DNA of 64,000 bases from Rhizodiscina lignyota. Taxonomy: Eukaryota. Under the pieces are notes generated by a model. That model ran no database searches, was not told the DNA's origin, and saw nothing but the letters and a program-made list of their open reading frames with translations. A program made the translations under genes and the position numbers. The stretch is from contig ML978126.1 of assembly GCA_010015805.1 (NCBI GenBank), positions 1,612,001 to 1,676,000 on the forward strand. Reading direction: 5' to 3'. Of the stretch, positions 1 through 61,546 are shown one piece after another. The stretch's first letter is position 1; each line of letters opens with the position of its first letter.

Positions 1-3000
1 GCTCAGCTGAGCAGATCTCCTTTACCCAGAGGAAGTTGACATGAAGCTGGACCGTGATGGCGATTGCATGTTGCATAGAGAGCCCCAAGCTTGAAGGCTC
101 AAGCCAAGTTCCTGATGCCAAACTTCTCGCATCTTCGACTGTATCAGGAGATATCCTCAGCCAGCTGTGGTCAGTGAACACCGCATACTTCGTGTCCCAA
201 TGCCCAGGACCAAAAGATGAAGTTTCCACGAGGGAAATCCGGTGGACCTTGCCCTTAACAGTGCTGATCTCGAGAAGCTTGGAGGGTAGCCCGCTATGGT
301 CTACTGATTGATGTGAAGAGCTTTTGGTTACGGCAAAGTCAGGGGACGACAAAGCAGGTGGCGGAAAAGCGATTCCCCAGCGCAGAAGAAGGTCACTCGC
401 ACGCCACGATTGCCTCTTTCCGAGTTCTTGAGGTGATATATTCGGAACAGTTGTCTTTTTCCATCCCGTGCAGTCTTCACTGAAGTGCAGCGTTGCCCAA
501 TTTAGGGATAAAGAGCGAGGGATGAAGTTTAGCAGTCGATCAAATCCGACTGCAATTTGGAGAGCAGTGGGGCGTGCAGAAGGAAGAGGATTGAGCATAG
601 CGGCCGCAAGTACCCAGAGGCCCTCGAAGAGGGAATCGCATTGATCATTGGCGGCTCGCTCGAGTTGTCGGTTTAAATACCGTGCCGTTGCAGATAAACG
701 ACGTCTCGTAAATTGATGTCCATTCTGACTGAAAACTCTGGAGACAAGATGTTCGCGGAGCAATTGGACTGAGCCTTGAGTGAGAATCACAAGGACCTCA
801 GCAAAAACCGCACCAAGCGAGAAGATGTCGCTTTTCATTGTATGTATAGAGGATGAGAGAGCCTCTGGCGCAGAGAACATCTGCGGCATGTCTGATGCAG
901 AAATCTTGATCGGCCGCGTAGCCATCTTCGTGGTCAAAGAATTACGCTCCGTGGTTGAACTTCCGAAGTCCGCGTACAAAAACTTCGTGCGAGCAATGAG
1001 AATATTGTCCGGTCGGATGTCGTTATGAAGGATTCTCTTCTGGTGAAGGTAGACCAATCCATCCACGAGTGCAATAAGACCAGCAAGGAGCTCGTGGCGC
1101 TGCACACTGCTGTAGTGTTTCGGGTCGAGAAGGTATCGCTCCAGATCAAAGTCGGCCACGGGCTCCATGAGCAGGGTTGGTCGCGGGCCTTGTGACAGCC
1201 CTGCCACAAATCGAACGCAGCTGGGATGGTTAATGAGTTGCAGAATCTCGATCTCACGTTGGAAATGCGCCAAGTCGACACCAGTCGCCCCTGGCTCCCG
1301 AAGAAGTTTCTGGGCGTAAGAAAAGCCTGTCGGGCCGTGTCGAATTTCCTCTACCCACGTGAAGGTGCCGCAACCAAGAGTCTGCACATTTTCAAAGCTG
1401 TCGCTCTGCTCCGAAAATGGAAGCACAAGAGCTCCAAGCAAATCAATGCGTTGTGCGAATGTAAATCTGGCTGCGTTATGAATAGCTCGGTGGGGTGCAC
1501 CAGAGCCTGATGTCGACGTTGCATCATTCATGAAATAAGCCGGCGAACTAGAAATAGAAGACGGAGAGAGCGCGCTAGAAGGACGCGTTATTGTCGTGCA
1601 GTTCCCAACAGCTGCAGGGACGGTGGCAGTATTGCTCACGGATGCCTTTCGCACTTTGCAACTATCCGGGTCTTGTTCAGGCCAGTCTCTAATATAGCGG
1701 GTTCCGTTGCGACTTTCATAGTAGTCGTGAAAGTGATCATGGAGATGGTTCAGTCTGTCTTTCCAGCTTTTGAATTTGTATCCCCCGAATCCACAGCGGG
1801 GCTCGAACAGTCGAGCGTTGACAGGCCTCGAGAAAAATGACTGCTCCACCAGTTTTTCTGTACTTTCTCTTCCTTGTGCATGGACTTGCGCCCTGACTAA
1901 ATGGTCTCTCATTTTGTCCTTTCTCAGAAACAACTTCGGGTCTTTTCTGCCCTCCCTTCGACACAGAATGCAAAGGTACACAGCTTGAGGTTGGCGCATC
2001 TCCTCGTGGCGCTCCCATTCATATCTACCCTTGAATCTTTTCTCACAACCCCATGTGCATTCCCAGGTCCCGTCATTCGGTTGATTATCCCTGGTCTGAT
2101 TGACGGCTGTACGTTTGCAATCCTTCTTCGTAATGCTTTTCTCGATGTAGTCGTTCCATGTCTTGGTAGAGGAGTCGAGTTCAGGCGATCCTTTCCGCAA
2201 GTCGGACGATGGGGTAGAGATTGGAAGTGGATTTGTAGGCGGCTCCAGCTCAACATAAGAGCTACTGTAAGTGTAGGAGCTGCCTCTCTGTAGAGACTGA
2301 GCAAGTCTGTTTCCGCAATCGTGCGTTGCATTTCGAGTTTTGTTGCTCCGCTTCTTCAAAAAACTGAGGACAGCTGACACGGGCAGCTCCATTTCACTTG
2401 CAATAGTGTTGAGTCGTTCTTGAATGCTGTCAATCTTCTCAATTTCTCTGGGTGATAGTTGGTGCTCATCAATGTCGCTTCCGTCAACATCTTGATTTTT
2501 CTTTTTCCTCTTCCGTTGGTTTCTTGCTGCAATGTCGGGCGACACTGCGTCCTGTTCATTCTGCGAACTGTTCTGTAGGTTCCGGCTGAACAGGCAGTCT
2601 GGAAACGATCCTGGCGACATGCCATCTGAAGGCTGTATGTCTGAGGGCAGATCCGAAAATGTACAGTAATCGAGCCCTGGGAATTCAAATGGACTGGCAT
2701 CAACTGCACTTGTCAGGCTTGTAGAATAGGTCTCCTGACTTGGATATGTTTGTTGACTCGTTCCGGTGGCATGTTGATCGGTAGGATTGGACGGAAAGGA
2801 GGGATGGGGCGCCTAATTCAAGTAAGTGAATATGCAGGATAAGATGCATGTAGCCAGCTCACAGTTGCCTGTGGCGGAGATGTATAATGACTAGCACCAA
2901 GTTCAAGGCTGAATGTCTCATGAGCGTTATGCCCAGGACCAGCGTCATAAGGTCCAAACCCGTTGCCTGCATCAGTGGATCCCTGAAGATCAGGCTCGTC

Positions 3001-7088: not shown

Positions 7089-7118
7089 CCTGAGCTCAGG
7101 GCCCTCTGAGTATAAATA
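7089..7118 (+). promoter_or_regulatory. Promoter of U2-like copy 1: palindrome CCTGAGCTCAGG plus TATA box
   Basis: Perfect 12-bp palindrome at 7089-7100 and TATAAATA at 7111-7118, about 40 nt before the U2-like 5' end. The same arrangement recurs at 60238-60267. Confidence 0.65.
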
Positions 7119-7155
7119 CCTCCCACTCTTCCACCTTCCTCCTCTTTTCTTCTTC

Positions 7156-7346
7156 AGTTCTCTTTGCCTTTTGGCTTAGATCAAACGAAGATTTTGTTCT
7201 TCACAGTTTAATCTCTGTGACAAGACTACGGTCTTTTCCTTGATTATTCAAATATTTGGAACCGGGTGATGATTCTTTGGGCTTTGCTCCGAGGCTTCAA
7301 AGCCACAGTGTCGCCGGTATTGCACTATCTCCGGCCGACGCGAACC
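7156..7346 (+). ncRNA. U2 snRNA variant, copy 1 (branch-recognition sequence GAAGAU instead of GUAGUA)
   Basis: The 5' end TCTCTTTGCCTTTTGGCTTAGATCAA matches fungal U2, followed by TGTTCTT. Stem IIa CACAG-TTTAATCT-CTGTG; stem IIb AAGAC-TACG-GTCTT; IIc partner GATTA; Sm-like AATATTTGG; SLIII region; SLIV GCCGG-TATTGCACTATCT-CCGGC. Length about 190 nt, followed by a T-rich tract. Ends are approximate. Confidence 0.9.
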
Positions 7347-10300
7347 TCCTCACTCTTTGTTTTTTCAGTGCCTCGTCTGCCTTGCGCTGGCGATCATCGA
7401 AGAAACCTTTGAAATTTTCCTTTCAATTCCTGCTTTGAACTCCCTTGATCCCTATGCTACTATGATACAATGATACTTTCAGGCTATACCTTGTATCTGC
7501 TACCATCATACTATGCCCATGTTTCAGTTTAAACAGTGGCTGGTAAGGTAGGGAATGTGAGGCGGCTGGTAGATGTATTTTGCTGAGCGTGAGATCATTA
7601 CTATCAGCGGCGTCGTATGGGTTTACATAACAATGAGTAAATAAGACCCATAGCTTGTAGACGCACTGAAGCCTAAATGGTAGCTATACCAGGTATGCTT
7701 GATTGTAGGGCCGTGATATTCGTGTTCGAGTAAAGTAATTGAGCAAAACAGAATGTGAAGTCGTGAGCTACAGTCTTAAGGTGGGCTCCTTGCAGCCACT
7801 AGTGAGATCTAGCACTAGTTCCTCTCATGGAACATACATCTCTACATCTCTAAGAGCTTTAAATGCTGAAATAATATGTTGAGTTGACTGTCGGCTGTAG
7901 TTGTGGTGGTGATCAGAGAGTAGGAAAAGATGGTGTTGTGAACATCACAGCTGGAGGTGGCAGCGGCAATGTGTACATTTACTTTATTGTGCAGATCGGA
8001 AGATCTATCGTTAAGGAAGTTCTTAGTATCCTGTTATGCATCTCAACTACTTCGACGTTGATGTTGTGGGCAAGTGACTTCTTAGTAGTATTCTGCAGCA
8101 GTATTCTCGCGGTCCAGGCTCACCCACAAACTCGAATTTCGATGGTTATTATTGGCAAAAGACCCCCTCAGTTATAGTCTGGCGCTTCTATATTGAATTA
8201 AGATATATATGTCCATCTTTCAGCTAACCTCTGCGTAAGTAGAACGACAGAAAGCTTTCCATAACCTCCTTTCCTAGCCTTAATGCGACCGATTCCGTTG
8301 TAAACAACGCCGTCAGCCAGACGAGCAGCATATTTCAGACATGAGGAGTCTTTCAACATAGAAAGACGTCAAAATAACCTTTGACGAAGATAAGAACGAT
8401 AAATACTGGTACTGATTCGCCTACTCATAGCAGAATACCCATCGTCGCGATCGGTATCCTATACGCAAATCCAAAACAGTTTCCCATCCAGCGCCGCCTA
8501 ATTTATCCCCTCGGGAGCTCAGCTTTATATTCAACGAACTGATACACGCTGAGGCAGAAGACTAATACATCCCATATGCTAATGCGCTGCTAAAGCTTTT
8601 ACTTATCACAAACGACACCTTCGAAGCATAGTCTTGTCATCGGACCACACAAACACCATTCGAACTTCATTTCCAATCGCCACCTTTCTTTGTATCTTCA
8701 GTAATCCTCTGAAGATATTGAGCAGCATGCTGTCTTCCTATGCGGCTACACCAATCTTCAAAGCGATGCTTCTTGACTATGTTGACGAGTACAAGCTCAA
8801 GACGCTACTAAAATAACAAGATCTCAAACAGGTGACTTTACCTGAGCCTATCTCACTGGATGTTTGGCTGATTGAGACAGAATTCTACTCCCACCTCTTC
8901 CTCCATATTTGCAGCCCGAACTCGAATACACGGCACCCAGAAATACCTCGAACATAACAATCAACACCAAGTCTTGATAACTGGACTCGTGGCGCGGATT
9001 GACGCCGAATACCTTGCCTCTCCTCGAGCAATACACACCATATCTTCAGTCAAATGGAGTTCATGATCTAGACAACCACAAATTTGATAGTAACTTTGTG
9101 TCAGTATCTTCACTGGAGTCGAAGAGATACAACTTGACCTCCAAACTTTGGTCAATGAACTTAGAAGTCAATGTTGGCAGAAACAACACCGAAAATGGAC
9201 TGAAGAAGACAAGCTGGTACAGTTGAGGAGAGAGAAGAGAAATGGAAGCGTGATTGGGCAAGGACAAAGACATAACGCGCTGGGAAGCAAAAGTTTCTCA
9301 AACATGGAGCATTCCAGCCACGGACTTGGGATAATGGCCAAGGTACTCGCAGAGTAGTAGATAATGCTTCATTCTAAGTCTACTGCCCATTGCTAACTGC
9401 TGCTAGTAAATAGTTCCAGCTTCTCCTGACCATTTCCCACTGCAATTTAAATCCCCCTTCTGCATCCATCTCCTGCTCGAACTACAAATGTCATTTCTCC
9501 ATCCGGCGACTAGTACCCAGTGTAGAAGCGCATTTGCATCAAACGTGGGAGCAGATACAAACGCAGCTTTAGATTGAAGGCGTACTAGGCGGATAGAGTT
9601 AAACGGTCATGGAGTGGAAGAAGAACAGTTCTTAAGATTTTGAGCTAAACTGGCGTAGAGACTGTGGGCTTCGGAAGGAACACTTAGCGAAGCCATAAGT
9701 TAGACCGAGAAGCATGAGAAGAATGGAATGGTCTAGAGGAAGTTATGATCTTGCTCGGCAGGGGATATTACAGATCTAGCTGGTAAATTCTGACACGATC
9801 ATCATGTCTGGATAGACAATGTACAGCTATTCTACTAGCTTATCGTTGTACATCTAAGAAAATGACCAATGACGGTGTGGGAAAGCTACATCGGTGATGT
9901 CGAGAAGACCACTAGTATACCGATAACCACCTCCCCTTTGGAGGATGGTACGAGCCCTCTAGAACATCCTTCGCAAGCGTTAGAAGACGATGCCGAATTG
10001 ATTAGTCTACTTTGCAGTTATCTCTGTCAAGCGAATACCGCATTAGGTTAGCGCTTCCAATGTGAGGGCTCTTTGATGGTGCCTTGCTTGCATCCCACTA
10101 ATCGCGACCACCTTTGTGGCTCCCCAGCTACCACACTTCTATTCCAGGTCTTATTTTGATTTTGATTATCTTCTGCGGCATGCGGCGCTGCAGTGCGGCC
10201 CTTTTGCGATGGATCGGAGGCCGAACATCTTTGACTCGGATTACTGAACCGGAGCTACCGACTCGCAGCACAATTATACCTGACTCCAAGGTCGAAGAAC

Positions 10301-21314: not shown

Positions 21315-23453
21315 GATATTATTGGAGAGATGTTATTTCTGTTTGTGCTATAGGTCAGTGGAAATATCAACGGCTTCAATTTCATGACGACGAACCAATG
21401 TTGGAACCGTTCTTCTTGCGGCGAGACGGATCGTGGGAATTACCTACTGAACAACTCTGGGAAAGCCATGACATATGGACCTAATGCTCAAAAATGTGTG
21501 GGAGTTGTAGTGGTTCTCTGATTCAAGCCCGAAGATGAAGCTGTGGGTACTTGTATCTTGCACACTGACTGGCACAGAAGACTGGTCTGCTGGAACAAGT
21601 CGATATTGTATTCACGCTCGCGGCTCAGAGCTGCACAGAGGTTTTGAATTGAAGTTTGAATACAGCATACCCTTCAAAACTCGAGGTATTCAGCCATTGT
21701 CCCCTGTTGTTACACCATCTGACCTTTCATTTCAACCGTCTCTCCCTGTCTCAGTTGTTGCCCTTATTGTATTCGAAGCGGGGTTCTTGTCAAATTTGCT
21801 GTAGTGGCTTCTGGAAGGAACTGGATTGCCCTAAGCTGTGCTGCTGTAAGTTGATTGAATCGCCGCTGCATATTCCAAGCTAAATGACCGAATCTTTGCC
21901 TACGTACCTCATTTCTTATGCCTGGGATTCTTCGAGTCGCGTTCCATTCGCGATTTTAAATCCTCCGAGTCGCGTTCCAAGTTTGCTTTCAAGTTCTCCA
22001 GGTAGTGATGCTCGATAGATCCAGGAATAGGAGCACTCATCCTCATCGAGAAATTATGATATGCCTGTAAACCCATCTTCCACGAGAACCATGCTTCATG
22101 TAAACAGCTCAGTCGCCAGACTGGCTCACAAGGCACAAAATTACTGAAACTTTGGCCTTGTTTGATAGAGGATCGGTCCATTGTGCGGCTACACCTGCTT
22201 TGTTCAAGATTGTTTTGGATGTTGTTCTCGGTCGTCTGTATAAAGTCTTATCGTCAAGGAGGCAGGAGAGGAGAATGTACCTAGATTTGACATGGTGAGT
22301 GAGCAGATATCATAATGACTGTGGTGCGAGTGAAAATGCTATGTTACTCACGATGCGAACGTTGTCCCTGGTCGCGAGGTTTGCGCGATTTAACTTGGCT
22401 GTTATGATGAAAGCTTTTCCACTTCCAATCTCTGGCTAGACGTGAAGACTGGAACTTGCATAGCATTGACGAACAGGAAAGATCTTGTGAGAGTCCGCGG
22501 GATTCATTTGTCGCGAGGCTCTGGAGGTGTTGACTAGGGAACAGGCGCTCGACGCTCGACGCTGGTGAAAACTGAAGTCGTAACTATGGATTCTATGCTC
22601 AATTTCAAAGTAAATTACTCACGGATGATTTTGAAGCCAATTCTTGTACTGAGCTGTTGTTAGGCCACAGTCCTTATGTTTGTAAAGGTGCACGCGGCGG
22701 AAAGAGCTTCTATCGGCTGGAGTGAGCTAGTTTAAAGATGTAATCTACAGTTGACTGTACTTTGAAGCATTCGAGACACTCATATATGCATTATCCAGTA
22801 GTGAAGCTCTTGGAATTTAAATAATGAAGCGCAAAGGCTCAAAACGCTTTGTGGGCGCCCTTTTGCAGCCGTCGATTTTCAACACCAAGCTGACCAAAAT
22901 ATTCCAAAGTACCAACCTCCGAAAAGACTTCATTACACATAGAAATTTTGATAATCAGAAGCGCCCTTGCAGGTCTATGAAGGAATAAAGGTGAACTGAT
23001 AGGCATTCGTCTATTTAATAAGAGTCTTACTGCTAAAGCCTAACGCCAGCTGTTCTCAGCTTCAACCGTGATTCCTACCGTAACAACGCGCCCTAGAACA
23101 GCTCTAAAGCTCTCATAATAGTTCATAGCAGCACATGAGACTTATTAAAGACTTCATAATCGGTTCTATGACTAGGTCTACTCTACAATTTGGTATAAAC
23201 TAATGTAACTCAAGTGAGATTACGGCTACAGCGATAACAGCTACCTGCGTAAATGCATTACTCATGTTTCCAACTGCATATGCTCTACATTCAAGTATTG
23301 CCAGTTGCTAAACTTCCTATAATACGACATCTGGGTAGGTAGAGGGCTTGACAAGCTTAAGTATTGTTCAATGTTTAATCATAGTTCTTTGTGCTTTCTT
23401 CGCCATGCCCCTATACAAGACAGAGGAGATAGTGAAAAAGATGAAAGATTGAA

Positions 23454-23641
23454 GAGTCGCGTCAGCCGGAGATAGTGCAATACTGGCGACACTGTGAGAG
23501 ATAACATGCCTAAGGGCAGAGGAGACCTCTCGAGTTCAAAAGATTAGAATAATCAAGATATAAGACCGTAGTCTTGTCACAGAGATTAAACTGAGAAGAA
23601 CAAAATCTTCGTATAATCTAAGCCAAAAGGCAAAGAGACGT
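23454..23641 (-). ncRNA. U2 snRNA variant, copy 2
   Basis: The reverse complement reads ACGTCTCTTTGCCTTTTGGCTTAGATTATACGAAGATTTTGTTCTTCTCAGTTTAATCTCTGTGACAAGACTACGGTCTT..GATTATTCTAATCTTTTGA..GAGAG..TGCC-CTTA-GGCA..CTCTC..GTCGCCAG-TATTGCACTATCT-CCGGCTGAC. A TATA-like run lies at 23678-23687. Confidence 0.88.
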
Positions 23642-24335
23642 GAGGAAGAAAAGAGGAGGAAGGTAGAAGATTGCAGAATATATATATCAATAGGAACGTT
23701 GAGGAACCCCTAGAGGGCCCATAGCATCACCCTAGGAGACTAATAGCATCGGCTTCCAGCGGGGGTTATGGAGCCGCAGCACCTTGCTACACATTGCGTG
23801 CATCCTTCGATTGGCGTGGCTGTCTGCCGTGGCGGTGTCGGGCTAGGAAAGTTCAAATCTGCGCTTCTAAATGTTGAGATGTTGGCAATTATCGTACACA
23901 ACGCAACGCAGTAAAAATTGCAATCATATAGGAAGATTGGCCATAGTCGAAAGTATCTCGCATTAAATTTATAGAAAAAACGAACCACTATATGGGGAGT
24001 AAATGCTCCTGAAGAGAGGACTCTTCGACTCTCCATCGACCACCACACTTCCATTTTAGGCTAGGGATCAACAAGCGGAGGCTGGGGCGGAGCTACCCGC
24101 CGCTTGTGCGCCATTTTAGCTTTGTAGAAGGTCCGATGACACCCGAAATCACCTGTGAAGACACTGAGTGATACTCGCGGTTTCGGCAGACCAGCGTGGA
24201 CGCCCAGAGGGGGACCGGTAATTCGTACTTCCGGACCGAAACCCAAACCTTCACCCGCAGCACCAGTCATCGCCGCAGCTTTCGTCTGGCCTCTAGCCTC
24301 CATCAGAACGCTCATCTGGCCTATTTCCCTGCTCA

Positions 24336-29345: not shown

Positions 29346-29800
29346 ATGGACGCCTTCAACTCGAACCACTTGGTAGCACATGTGTCAAAGATATATTTGG
29401 GGTCAAATTTCAGATTCAAAGGGAGGTCTGTTCAACAGCTCCTTGCGACTTTGAAAGTTGACCCTGAATATGTCTTTGACACATGTGCTACTTACAAACA
29501 CACTCTGCGGGAGCTTTCTTTCGAAGCATTCCCACTGCAAGAGCATCACGTCGGTTTGGCCTGATCATTCGCCGAGGTTCCATCAAGGTCTCGCGCGATG
29601 TCTTCATCCCACACATCTATTTCACGTATCTCGATTTGGTTTCCGGGTACTACCCGTTGGAAAGAGGAGGATGCCCAGAAGTGGACTCGCACCTTCTCGT
29701 GGTGCTGGGCGTCAGTACTCCTGTCGGGCTTGCTGTCCCGCACAGGAGGAAGCTAAGACGAGTCCTGTTCGTGCTTGGTTGGCTTGCATGTCTCAGATAG
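29346..29800 (+). pseudogene. Possible frameshifted small hypothetical gene
   Basis: TATTTAAA and a CT-rich leader precede CACCATGG. Two overlapping ORFs (29334-29564 and 29483-29800) lie in different frames with no evident intron. Confidence 0.3.
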
Positions 29801-60237: not shown

Positions 60238-60267
60238 CCTGAGCTCAGGGTCTCTGAGTATATATAT
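60238..60267 (+). promoter_or_regulatory. Promoter of U2-like copy 3: palindrome CCTGAGCTCAGG plus TATA box
   Basis: Same palindrome (60238-60249) and TATATATAT (60259-60267) as upstream of copy 1. Confidence 0.65.
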
Positions 60268-60303
60268 CTCTCACTTTTCGACCTTCCTCCTCTTTTCTTC
60301 TTC

Positions 60304-60495
60304 AGTTCTCTTTGCCTTTTGGCTTTGATCAAACGAAGATTTTGTTCTTCGCAGTTTAATCTCTGTGACAAGATTACGGTCTTATTCTATTGATTATTCT
60401 AATATTTGGAACCGGCTTTGGTGGTTCAATGAGCTTGCTCATTTCCCATCGCACAGTGTCGCTGGTATTCGCACTATCTCCAGCTGACGCGACCC
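60304..60495 (+). ncRNA. U2 snRNA variant, copy 3
   Basis: AGTTCTCTTTGCCTTTTGGCTTTGATCAAACGAAGATTTTGTTCTTCGCAGTTTAATCTCTGTG...; Sm-like AATATTTGG; SLIII tip GAGCTTGCTC as in canonical U2; SLIV GCTGG-TATTCGCACTATCT-CCAGC. Confidence 0.9.
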
Positions 60496-61546
60496 TCTTT
60501 TTCATCTTTGGTTCCGCCTTGAGTGGGACAATGAGGAAGAAGATCTTGTCTCAAAAGTTCTCTTCAATCAGTCCAATTGTTTTCGCGTGCTTGCTCCTAT
60601 GCTTGCTTGCTATATCCTTTGCTTACTTACTTGCTATGCCTGCAGCAATTTTGTTGTCATGTTAAGGCTTGTGGCTTGGTGTGGAGGCTCATTTGTGGTC
60701 TTTAAGAGGCCTGTTCGAGAAAGCATGGCATTTTGATAAATAGATAGATAGATCAGGACCAACTATGAAGAAGCCTTGAAATGCAAATAAAAGCAGGAGT
60801 ACTCTTTCATTAGCTTAAACTTTGGGCCTACTTCTGCCTTGTGCTTATTGCTAGTGTGGTAGTAGTCCGTCGATTCCCATAACAACGTGTATGAATTGCA
60901 CCATCTCTACGCCCTCCACGGCCTGTTCCCTAGAGCAGGAAAACCACTGATCCCAAAGCATATGGACTGACAGTTCAGGATTCAGATATCAGTTCATGAG
61001 TTCGTTTGCCTCAAAGCATTGATTGTCATCTATCTGTTGCCTGACCCTTTCGTCGCTACTGCCATTGCACATCGCGCTACAGGAGCTGGCATACACCATC
61101 AGCACATAAACGCACTCAATCAAGGCCGGAATCCCTATGTTGGGTAGAACTGCTTGCTTTGGTTGGTAGAAGCAACGAATGGTCATCATATCCATGAATC
61201 TGCTCTGCTGACTTCATTTGTAGTCTCGCGTCGGGCCACTCCCGTATGTTACAGTAAAATAAACACCAAAACGCCACGCCCATTTCTTCCAGGTTGCAGC
61301 TCATTAAGTGCAAATCCACAGGACTGCGAAAGACGGTGATAAGCCCGTTACCATTCTCTTATCGGCCTTTCAAGCCCATTACAAGTTTGATCTCGCAGTA
61401 AGATCTCTTCTTGTTTCCGCTGCCACCATGGGTGATGGGTAAGTCTGCTCTCCCAAAGGCGCTAAACATCCAATAGTTCGTGTTGAATTCCTATAGCCAA
61501 ATCTGACAAGTCTCCCAACTTCAAAGGCCAGAAACTGCCACTCCCC

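What the first reader, a model, noticed from the sequence alone, without database searches (positions are those of the whole stretch)
23454..23641. Three dispersed copies diverge in sequence but keep structure
Seen: SLIII differs greatly among copies (GGGC-UUU-GCUC, UGCC-CUUA-GGCA, AUGAGC-UU-GCUCAU) yet each forms a hairpin. SLIV shows a C-G to U-A swap (GCCGG/CCGGC versus GCUGG/CCAGC). Stem IIa is CACAG/CUGUG rather than the yeast-type UUCAG/CUGAA, the IIb UACG tetraloop and IIc pairing (UAAUC/GAUUA) are kept, and ACGAAGAUUUUGUUCUUC is identical in all copies. Inference: an old family under purifying selection on both fold and the new guide sequence. Copy 2 has extra mismatches (GAUUAU for GAUCAA, one in IIa, one in SLIV).
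Basis: partly seen in the sequence, partly recalled or inferred. Interest (0 to 1): 0.8.

Follow-up and report, generated by a model that had tools for sequence, protein, structure and literature searches.

The report
Variant U2 snRNA gene family, fungus
The stretch is one of three complete copies of a fungal U2 spliceosomal RNA gene in which the normally invariant branch-site-reading letters are rewritten identically in every copy, so it may be a naturally re-targeted splicing RNA, though its use is unproven.

Summary
Rfam finds three full-length U2 snRNA genes (7154-7349 +, 23451-23642 -, 60302-60498 +; 98-107 bits) in an ascomycete window. The hairpins, the SLIV C-G to U-A swap, the stem IIa/IIb/IIc features and copy 2's extra mismatches are all present.

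The inference is partly supported. Selection shows in uneven divergence: the 5' domain is 98-104 of 110-111 identical, SLIII only 15-20 of 38, and the flanks cannot be aligned. Formal covariation is not significant with three sequences: 1 compensatory pair of 33, matched by 158 of 500 shuffles.

The branch-point box reads ACGAAGAUUU where the Rfam consensus reads GUGUAGUAUC, identically in 3 of 3 copies. A TATA box and a 20-nt block identical in all three copies lie upstream. The window's candidate introns use ordinary CTRAY branch sites, so a canonical U2 probably exists elsewhere.

I could find no RNA evidence, no orthologue and no target. My best reading is a selected variant-U2 family with changed or masked branch-site specificity, of which copy 2 is the most eroded member. 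It is a new variant of a known kind.

The parts
23451..23642 (-). U2 snRNA paralogue, copy 2 (the finding). It is the most deviant of the three.
   Evidence: Rfam RF00004, 98.2 bits, model 1-192. It has 13 private changes in 161 columns.
23595..23612 (-). Rewritten branch-point recognition box plus pyrimidine tract (ACGAAGAUUUUGUUCUUC), copy 2
   Evidence: Exact 18-mer, 3 matches in the window against 0 expected. Aligned to the Rfam consensus GUGUAGUAUCUGUUCUU.
23617..23636 (-). Stem-loop I and the start of the U6-pairing (helix I) region, copy 2
23562..23596 (-). Stem IIa (one U x U mismatch) and stem-loop IIb with the UACG loop, copy 2
23534..23546 (-). Sm-site region (UAAUCUUUUGAAC), copy 2
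   Evidence: Aligned to the Rfam Sm-site consensus; sequence.
23496..23533 (-). Stem-loop III, copy 2. It cannot be aligned by sequence with the other copies but forms one hairpin.
   Evidence: MFE -12.6 kcal/mol; 4 of 200 shuffles fold as well.
23459..23492 (-). Stem-loop IV with an AUUGCACUAUC-type loop, copy 2 (one A x C mismatch)
23645..23664 (-). 20-nt pyrimidine block just upstream of the RNA, identical in all three copies; presumed core promoter element
   Evidence: 3 matches with 0 mismatches, 0 expected.
23678..23686 (-). TATA box of copy 2 (TATATATAT)
7154..7349 (+). U2 snRNA paralogue, copy 1 (best Rfam score). Box at 7185-7202, pyrimidine block at 7133-7152, TATAAATA at 7111-7118.
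   Evidence: 106.8 bits.
60302..60498 (+). U2 snRNA paralogue, copy 3. Box at 60333-60350, pyrimidine block at 60281-60300, TATA at 60259-60267. It carries the compensated SLIV pair.
   Evidence: 101.3 bits.

Best explanation
The locus is one member of a family of variant U2 snRNA genes in an ascomycete fungus. Three members lie in this window and at least two more lie elsewhere in the genome.

Shown: each member is a complete gene unit. It has a TATA box, an invariant 20-nt pyrimidine block, a roughly 195-nt U2 RNA, and a downstream T-run with a CTTG motif. The RNA keeps stem-loop I, the U6-pairing GCUUAGAUC region, the IIa/IIb/IIc toggle, the Sm site, SLIII and SLIV. Only the branch-point recognition region is rewritten, at 6 of 10 positions (GUGUAGUAUC in the consensus, ACGAAGAUUU here), identically in every window copy.

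Inferred: the genes are transcribed by RNA polymerase II and packaged as U2-type snRNPs. They coexist with a canonical GUAGUA U2 encoded outside the window. Selection keeps them because the new box changes branch-site behaviour. Either it pairs with a non-CTRAY site (predicted AUCUU-A-C), or it is held in a GAAGA/UCUUC hairpin that masks it.

Copy 2, the stretch of this finding, is the most eroded member and may be drifting towards a pseudogene.
For: Identity as U2: three full-length RF00004 matches of 98-107 bits.

Box: it is identical in 3 of 3 copies and is flanked by canonical U2 sequence. Of the 10 box positions, 4 match the Rfam consensus.

Complete gene unit: similarity covers only about -68 to +231 relative to the RNA start, and the flanks cannot be aligned. 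The 20-nt upstream block is 20/20 identical in all copies. A TATA box lies 35-45 nt upstream.

Non-neutral divergence: 5' domain 98-104 of 110-111 identical against SLIII 15-20 of 38. Changes hit 6 of 66 paired columns against 22 of 95 unpaired columns. SLIII stays a hairpin in all three copies (combined p = 0.010).

More members: contigs of run X1 show at the box position four distinct sequences summing to 893.5 depth, about 5.8 times the single-copy depth of about 155. One of them is a decayed copy with 14 differences in 73 nt. A further copy differs from copy 1 almost only in SLIII.

Ordinary introns: 12 of 31 ORF-joining candidate introns carry CTRAY near the 3' splice site and 2 carry CTTAY. 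This fits a canonical U2 existing elsewhere.

Rarity: GUAGUA is reported as strictly retained across the eukaryotes examined, apart from substitutions in two sponges (PMC13685798, passages).
Against: No orthologue or relative with this box turned up in the accessible collections. The exact-box metagenome scan gave 0 loci. The degenerate scan gave 26 loci, none with this box; the U2-like ones mostly differ from GUGUAGUAUC at one box position. All 68 matches to the 18-mer in prokaryote and viral contigs lack U2 flanks.

Covariation is not significant.

The predicted target ATCTTAC is not enriched in the window: 5 found against 7.8 expected.

The box is predicted to be sequestered in a 5-bp hairpin at -5.1 kcal/mol, against -0.7 for a BSL-like fold. 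Such a hairpin arises in 323 of 5000 random boxes, so it may be chance.

No canonical U2 was seen in the one run that could be laid. That tool silently drops human-like contigs, so the absence is uninformative.

Copy 2 has two helix-breaking mismatches and a changed helix Ia base.
Confidence: 0.5

Rival explanations
1. These are the organism's only, housekeeping U2 snRNAs. The lineage has rewritten its branch-point recognition sequence, and recognition of CTRAY sites relies on proteins plus the three retained pairs (G33, A35, G36).
For: They are multi-copy and are the only U2 matches in the window. Every contig of run X1 laid across the box carries the variant or a decayed box and none carries GUAGUA. 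The three box positions that pair with the conserved C, U and Y of CURAY are the ones retained (alignment; the pairing scheme is recalled from textbook knowledge).
Against: Candidate introns in the window use CTRAY (12 of 31) and not CTTAY (2 of 31). The variant box would put a purine-purine mismatch next to the branch adenosine. GUAGUA is reported as almost universally retained (PMC13685798, passages). The laying tool drops contigs that resemble human DNA, and a canonical U2 5' half would resemble it (tool text).
Confidence: 0.12
2. This is a non-functional pseudogene family. One U2 copy acquired a mutated box and was then duplicated. The apparent conservation comes from recency or from gene conversion among copies.
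For: U2 copies with altered boxes occur as minor members of multi-copy families elsewhere, for example the single U34 to C or A changes and one multiply changed copy among metagenome U2 genes. There is a decayed fourth copy. Copy 2 shows excess change. Covariation is not significant.
Against: Neutral decay cannot leave the 5' domain 89-95% identical while SLIII and the flanks are saturated. The promoter block is 20/20 identical. Conversion tracts would not stop at functional boundaries and leave scattered private changes. Conversion from a canonical U2 would restore GUAGUA.
Confidence: 0.18
3. The RNAs are functional, but the new box is not a guide. It evolved to pair with the invariant UUCUUC tract. 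This locks the branch-binding region in a stem, so the RNA acts as a regulator or decoy that binds U2 snRNP proteins or U6 without engaging introns.
For: A GAAGA/UCUUC 5-bp hairpin is the MFE of the local region in copies 1 and 2 (-5.1 kcal/mol for the 29-nt segment). All protein- and U6-binding elements are retained.
Against: 323 of 5000 random boxes and 224 of 5000 permuted boxes fold as well, so the hairpin is not significant. In copy 3 the full 5' domain MFE uses another fold. No precedent is known to me (recalled).
Confidence: 0.15

Closest known systems
Canonical U2 spliceosomal snRNA (Rfam RF00004)
   Same: Full-length covariance-model match. It shares SLI, the U6-pairing GCUUAGAUC, the stem IIa/IIb/IIc toggle, the Sm site, SLIII, the SLIV loop and a TATA-type upstream promoter.
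   Different: The branch-point recognition region reads ACGAAGAUUU instead of GUGUAGUAUC, 6 of 10 positions changed, in all three copies.
U12 snRNA of the minor spliceosome (same Rfam clan CL00006)
   Same: It is the only well-known natural snRNA that does the U2 job with a different branch-site-pairing sequence. The predicted target AUCUU-A-C is pyrimidine-rich before the branch A, as the U12-type branch site is (recalled).
   Different: The architecture and the CM match are U2, not U12. The U12-type 5' splice-site motif RTATCCTT is not enriched: 4 found against 2.75 expected. Ascomycetes are thought to lack the minor spliceosome (recalled).
Human variant U1 (vU1) snRNAs and human U2 variants
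   Same: They are paralogous snRNA gene families in which some transcribed members carry changes. vU1 members have altered 5'-splice-site-pairing ends (search listings for PMC10870369, PMC13172311 and PMC8457000; abstracts only).
   Different: Those are animal families. The listings I saw describe no U2 variant family with a uniformly rewritten branch-point box.
Engineered orthogonal U2 snRNAs (U2-Ortho; suppressor U2 alleles)
   Same: A U2 scaffold with an altered branch-point recognition sequence splices only a reporter with a matching branch site. Changes in the BSL stem affect accumulation (PMC13019295, abstract and passages).
   Different: Those are laboratory constructs. Here the altered box is natural, multi-copy and conserved.
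Sponge U2 snRNAs with substitutions in GUAGUA
   Same: They are natural departures from the GUAGUA motif (PMC13685798, passages).
   Different: The paper reports only a few substitutions in two sponge species. I did not see the sequences (they are in a figure), so the extent cannot be compared.

Membership tests
U2 snRNA (RF00004) | Covariance-model score above the gathering threshold over the full model | tested here: met
   98.2, 101.3 and 106.8 bits against a gathering score of 46; model positions 1-192 in all three.
U2 snRNA (RF00004) | Branch-point recognition sequence GUAGUA (consensus GUGUAGUAUC) | tested here: not met
   All three copies read ACGAAGAUUU. Only 4 of 10 positions match the consensus.
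U2 snRNA (RF00004) | Stem-loop I followed by the U6-pairing sequence GCUUAGAUC (helix I) | tested here: met
   Copy 1 matches. Copy 3 has A to U at A2 column 25. Copy 2 has C to U in GAUC. No U6 gene was available to test the pairing itself.
U2 snRNA (RF00004) | Stem IIa, stem-loop IIb and the alternative IIc pairing | tested here: met
   Cells paired: IIa 94.4%, IIb 100%, IIc 100%.
U2 snRNA (RF00004) | Sm site between stem II and SLIII | tested here: met
   AUAUUUGG in copies 1 and 3 and AUCUUUUG in copy 2, aligned to the consensus AUUUUUGg, each one letter off a pure U-run.
U2 snRNA (RF00004) | 3' stem-loops III and IV with the conserved SLIV loop | tested here: met
   SLIII forms a hairpin in each copy. 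SLIV is 96.7% paired with the loop AUUGCACUAUC.
U2 snRNA (RF00004) | Expressed, capped, Sm- and SF3-bound, and present in spliceosomes | not testable with these tools
   Only one run, not on record as RNA, holds the sequence.
U12 snRNA (RF00007) | Best covariance-model match within clan CL00006 | tested here: not met
   Only U2 is reported at the three loci, in both gathering and E-value modes. Overlapping clan hits are suppressed, so a weaker U12 score is not excluded.
snRNA pseudogene | Truncation, loss of promoter, or evenly spread mutations | tested here: not met
   The copies are full length, the promoter block is 20/20 identical and divergence is strongly uneven. Copy 2 is the only member with signs of relaxation.

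The most novel reading that the evidence does not exclude
A natural 'orthogonal' U2. A selected, multi-copy class of U2 snRNAs has a rewritten branch-point recognition loop that directs U2-type spliceosomes to a distinct, non-CTRAY branch site (predicted AUCUU-A-C) in a dedicated set of RNAs. This would be a third mode of branch-site recognition beside canonical U2 and U12. Alternatively, it would be the first fungus whose sole U2 has abandoned GUAGUA.
Probability: 0.3. Interest if true: 0.85.

Novelty: new variant of a known kind. Interest (0 to 1): 0.6.

Why it matters
GUAGUA in U2 is one of the most invariant RNA motifs in eukaryotes (PMC13685798 and PMC13019295, passages). Re-targeting U2 by changing it is so far known to me only as a laboratory device, apart from U12.

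A fungal gene family that keeps everything a U2 snRNP needs, but carries one shared rewritten box under selection, would give a natural system for three questions. How does branch-site specificity evolve? Can variant snRNAs define private intron classes or regulate splicing? How much mismatch do the BSL/toehold mechanism and SF3b tolerate?

If instead the family proves to be silent, it is an ordinary set of snRNA pseudogenes.

Tried and rejected
- Whole-genome search: no genome is held for this window.
- RNA evidence: the look-up of sequencing runs listed one run (X1, contigs, share 0.80) and no RNA holder. This says nothing about expression.
- Laying X1 at 80% likeness to expose other U2 genes: no GUAGUA contig was laid across the box. 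Depth dips at the box (about 6.6 copy-equivalents in the 7190-7199 bin) relative to 7170-79 (about 15) and 7210-29 (about 12). The tool drops human-like contigs and part of the 5' excess may be CT-rich low-complexity matches, so I draw no conclusion about a canonical U2.
- Metagenome scans: the exact box gave 0 loci. The degenerate U2 pattern with a non-U at position 34 gave 26 loci, none with the box.
- Prokaryote-genome and viral-contig scans for the 18-mer: 59 and 9 loci holding 68 matches, 0 with U2-like flanks, so chance hits.
- Literature: 5 searches found nothing on fungal U2 variants with an altered box or on the box sequence itself. Passages of PMC2377427 and PMC3890542 held nothing relevant.
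- First intron-motif screen without ORF logic: too noisy to use. The unfiltered list contains many false candidates. CTTAC hits are partly antisense GTAAG donor sites.
- Predicted-target search in the window: ATCTTAC 5 found against 7.8 expected, and ATCTTAY 9 against 15.9. One candidate intron (2813-2862, minus strand) holds ATCTTAT and CACTTAC, which is a single case.
- U12-type donor motif: 4 found against 2.75 expected.
- Bacterial promoter and terminator scan: irrelevant to a eukaryote.
- Other dispersed repeats or a transposon context around the copies: none.
- Repeat-induced point mutation as the source of differences: 11 transitions against 11 transversions or multi-state columns, so no transition bias.

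Full report
**What is there.** An Rfam scan of the whole window finds three full-length matches to U2 spliceosomal RNA (RF00004, model positions 1-192):

| Copy | Coordinates | Strand | Bits |
|---|---|---|---|
| 1 | 7154-7349 | + | 106.8 |
| 2 (the finding) | 23451-23642 | - | 98.2 |
| 3 | 60302-60498 | + | 101.3 |

The gathering score is 46. A permissive E-value scan adds no other RNA family.

The window is eukaryotic and fungal. Long ORFs match Pkinase/Pkinase_fungal, PigL_N, nitronate monooxygenase, amino-acid permease and MFS families. The nearest ESM Atlas clusters of the permease piece are Ascomycota.

**Check of the observation.** Every structural statement holds.
- SLIII cannot be aligned among the copies (15/38, 20/38 and 17/38 identical after MAFFT). 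For copy 3, AAUGAG-CUUG-CUCAUU is the sterically possible form.
- Dinucleotide shuffles fold as well in 19, 4 and 25 of 200. These combine to p = 0.010, which is modest support.
- SLIV shows one two-sided change, C-G to U-A in copy 3. Copy 2 has an A x C mismatch there.
- Stem IIa column 50 is A-U in copy 1, U x U in copy 2 and G-U in copy 3. The IIb UACG loop and the IIc UAAUC/GAUUA pairing are invariant.
- The 18-mer ACGAAGATTTTGTTCTTC occurs once in each copy and nowhere else, with 0 expected by chance.
- Copy 2 carries 13 private changes in 161 confidently aligned columns, against 4 for copy 1 and 7 for copy 3. They include GAUUAU for GAUCAA and a changed Sm-site region.

**Is it more than chance, and is it selection?** Formal covariation cannot be shown with three sequences. 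I drew 33 pairs on alignment A2. Of the cells, 93.9% form standard pairs, against 31-44% when the partners are slid. Only 1 pair changes on both sides, and 158 of 500 column shuffles reach that.

The stronger evidence is uneven divergence.
- The 5' domain (5' end to Sm site) is 98/110, 104/110 and 98/111 identical. SLIII is 15-20 of 38 (Fisher p between 5e-9 and 2e-7).
- blastn of the units with 1.5-kb flanks aligns only about -68 to +231 relative to the RNA start. Everything further out is noise.
- No other dispersed repeat or transposon context exists in the window.
- Changes fall in 6 of 66 paired columns against 22 of 95 unpaired ones.
- Transitions and transversions are equal, 11 to 11, so repeat-induced point mutation is not the source.

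Purifying selection on the RNA, or on most of it, is the best reading.

**The gene unit.** Upstream, all copies share a TATA box (TATAAATA at 7111-7118; TATATATAT at 23678-23686 on the minus strand and at 60259-60267). They also share a 20-nt pyrimidine block, ACCTTCCTCCTCTTTTCTTC, that is 20/20 identical in all three and ends 1-2 nt before the Rfam start. A conserved A two nt inside the Rfam start is a plausible transcription start; this is inference. Downstream, a T5-6 run and a CTTG motif are shared. The copies carry their promoter, so they are DNA-level gene duplicates and not retro-copies.

**The unusual part.** Against the Rfam consensus GAUCAA-GUGUAGUAUC-UGUUCUU, all three copies read GAUCAA-ACGAAGAUUU-UGUUCUU (copy 2 has GAUUAU at the start). 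Only 4 of the 10 box positions match, while both sides are canonical. The hexamer that pairs with the intron branch site, GUAGUA, is GAAGAU here.

Two papers describe GUAGUA as the conserved branch-point recognition sequence. One reports it strictly retained in all eukaryotes examined, apart from a few substitutions in two sponges (PMC13685798, passages; PMC13019295, abstract and passages).

By the textbook pairing scheme, which I recall rather than computed, the new box would match AUCUU-A-C instead of UACUA-A-C. It retains G33, A35 and G36, which pair with the Y, U and C of CURAY. It places A34 opposite the purine next to the branch adenosine.

**Do the organism's introns fit the new box?** No. 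I listed donor sites whose shortest GT...YAG candidate joins two open reading frames of 50 or more codons. Of 31 such sites, 12 have CTRAY in the last 45 nt (most of them 7-21 nt from the 3' splice site), 2 have CTTAY and 3 have CTCAY. The list certainly contains false candidates. Still, the genome uses ordinary fungal branch sites, which fit GUAGUA. A canonical U2 is therefore expected elsewhere in the genome, but I could not verify this because no genome is held.

**Other members.** Contigs of the single public run that holds the sequence (X1, not on record as RNA) were laid on copy 1 at 80% likeness. The results are as follows.
- At the box position the depth of 893.5 is exactly the sum of four contigs. 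These are an 88-nt unitig identical to copy 1 (419.1, about 2.7 times the single-copy depth of about 155), copy 2, copy 3, and a fourth sequence.
- The fourth sequence is diverged, with 14 differences in 73 nt, including three inside the box. It lies on the contig that continues copy 1's upstream flank, about 10.8 kb beyond the window start, in the opposite orientation.
- A further contig differs from copy 1 almost only between the Sm site and SLIV.

So the family has at least five members, one of them decayed. No GUAGUA contig was laid, but the tool discards human-like contigs, so this says nothing.

**Local structure of the box.** The new GAAGA can pair with the invariant UCUUC six nt downstream, at -5.1 kcal/mol. 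This is the MFE of the 29-nt segment and appears in the 5'-domain folds of copies 1 and 2. A BSL-like fold evaluates to -0.7 kcal/mol. It uses G25-C45, A26-U44, C28-G42, A29-U41, A30-U40 and A31-U39. The stem positions agree with the human BSL mutations described in PMC13019295, and the exact partners are my recollection. The hairpin is not statistically remarkable: 323 of 5000 random boxes and 224 of 5000 permuted boxes fold as well.

**Relatives elsewhere.** None were found.
- The exact box with its stem IIa start gave 0 metagenome loci.
- A degenerate U2 pattern requiring a non-U at position 34 gave 26 loci. The U2-like ones mostly carry a single-letter change in the box (GUGCAGUAUC or GUGAAGUAUC), one carries two changes, and one is a multiply changed copy. 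None has this box.
- All 68 matches to the 18-mer in prokaryote and viral contigs lack U2 flanks.
- Five literature searches found no description of such a fungal variant or of the sequence.

These collections hold few fungal genomes, so absence is weak evidence.

**Interpretation.** Confidences for the four readings:

| Reading | Confidence |
|---|---|
| Selected family of variant U2 snRNAs coexisting with a canonical U2. The rewritten box changes branch-site choice or masks the branch-binding region. Copy 2 is its most eroded member. | about 0.5 |
| The only U2 of the organism | 0.12 |
| Pseudogene family homogenised by conversion | 0.18 |
| A decoy locked by the GAAGA/UCUUC stem | 0.15 |

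By homology these are U2 genes. By the defining GUAGUA feature they are not canonical U2, so I file them as a new variant of a known kind. Expression, snRNP assembly, targets and conservation in other species are all untested.

Noticed in passing
outside the window, about 10.8 kb before position 1 (from, record 1): A fourth U2-like sequence sits on the same 22.5-kb contig as copy 1's upstream flank, in the opposite orientation. It has 14 differences in 73 nt, including three inside the box. It looks like a decayed family member, so the family forms a loose cluster of at least 70 kb.
   Followed up: partly
window 7133-7152, 23645-23664 (-), 60281-60300: A 20-nt pyrimidine block, ACCTTCCTCCTCTTTTCTTC, is 100% identical upstream of all three copies. 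It is better conserved than most of the RNA and occurs nowhere else in the window. It may be a snRNA-type promoter element of this fungus.
   Followed up: partly
window 7360-7385, 23415-23440 (-), 60498-60525: A T5-6 run followed by a CTTG motif is shared just downstream of the RNAs. It could be a 3'-end formation signal. The combination of T-run and TATA box also raises the question of which polymerase transcribes these genes.
   Followed up: no
window 7187-7202 and equivalents: The rewritten box GAAGA is complementary to the invariant UCUUC six nt downstream, giving a 5-bp hairpin at -5.1 kcal/mol. About 6% of random boxes fold as well.
   Followed up: yes
window 29373-29491: A near-perfect inverted repeat with 53-nt arms, 83% complementary and 13 nt apart. 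It could be a hairpin or a MITE-like element. It is unrelated to the U2 genes.
   Followed up: no
L003, L004, L006, L007, L012, L013, L015-L019, L021, L022, L026: These metagenome U2 genes, plant-, protist- or fungus-like, differ from the consensus box at position 34 (U to C or A; L004 has one further change). Position 34 variants therefore recur in multi-copy U2 families.
   Followed up: no
window 2813-2862 (-): A candidate 50-nt intron upstream of the kinase ORF lacks CTRAY. It holds ATCTTAT 28 nt and CACTTAC 11 nt from its 3' end. It is the only candidate in the window that fits the predicted variant-box target, and it may be chance.
   Followed up: partly
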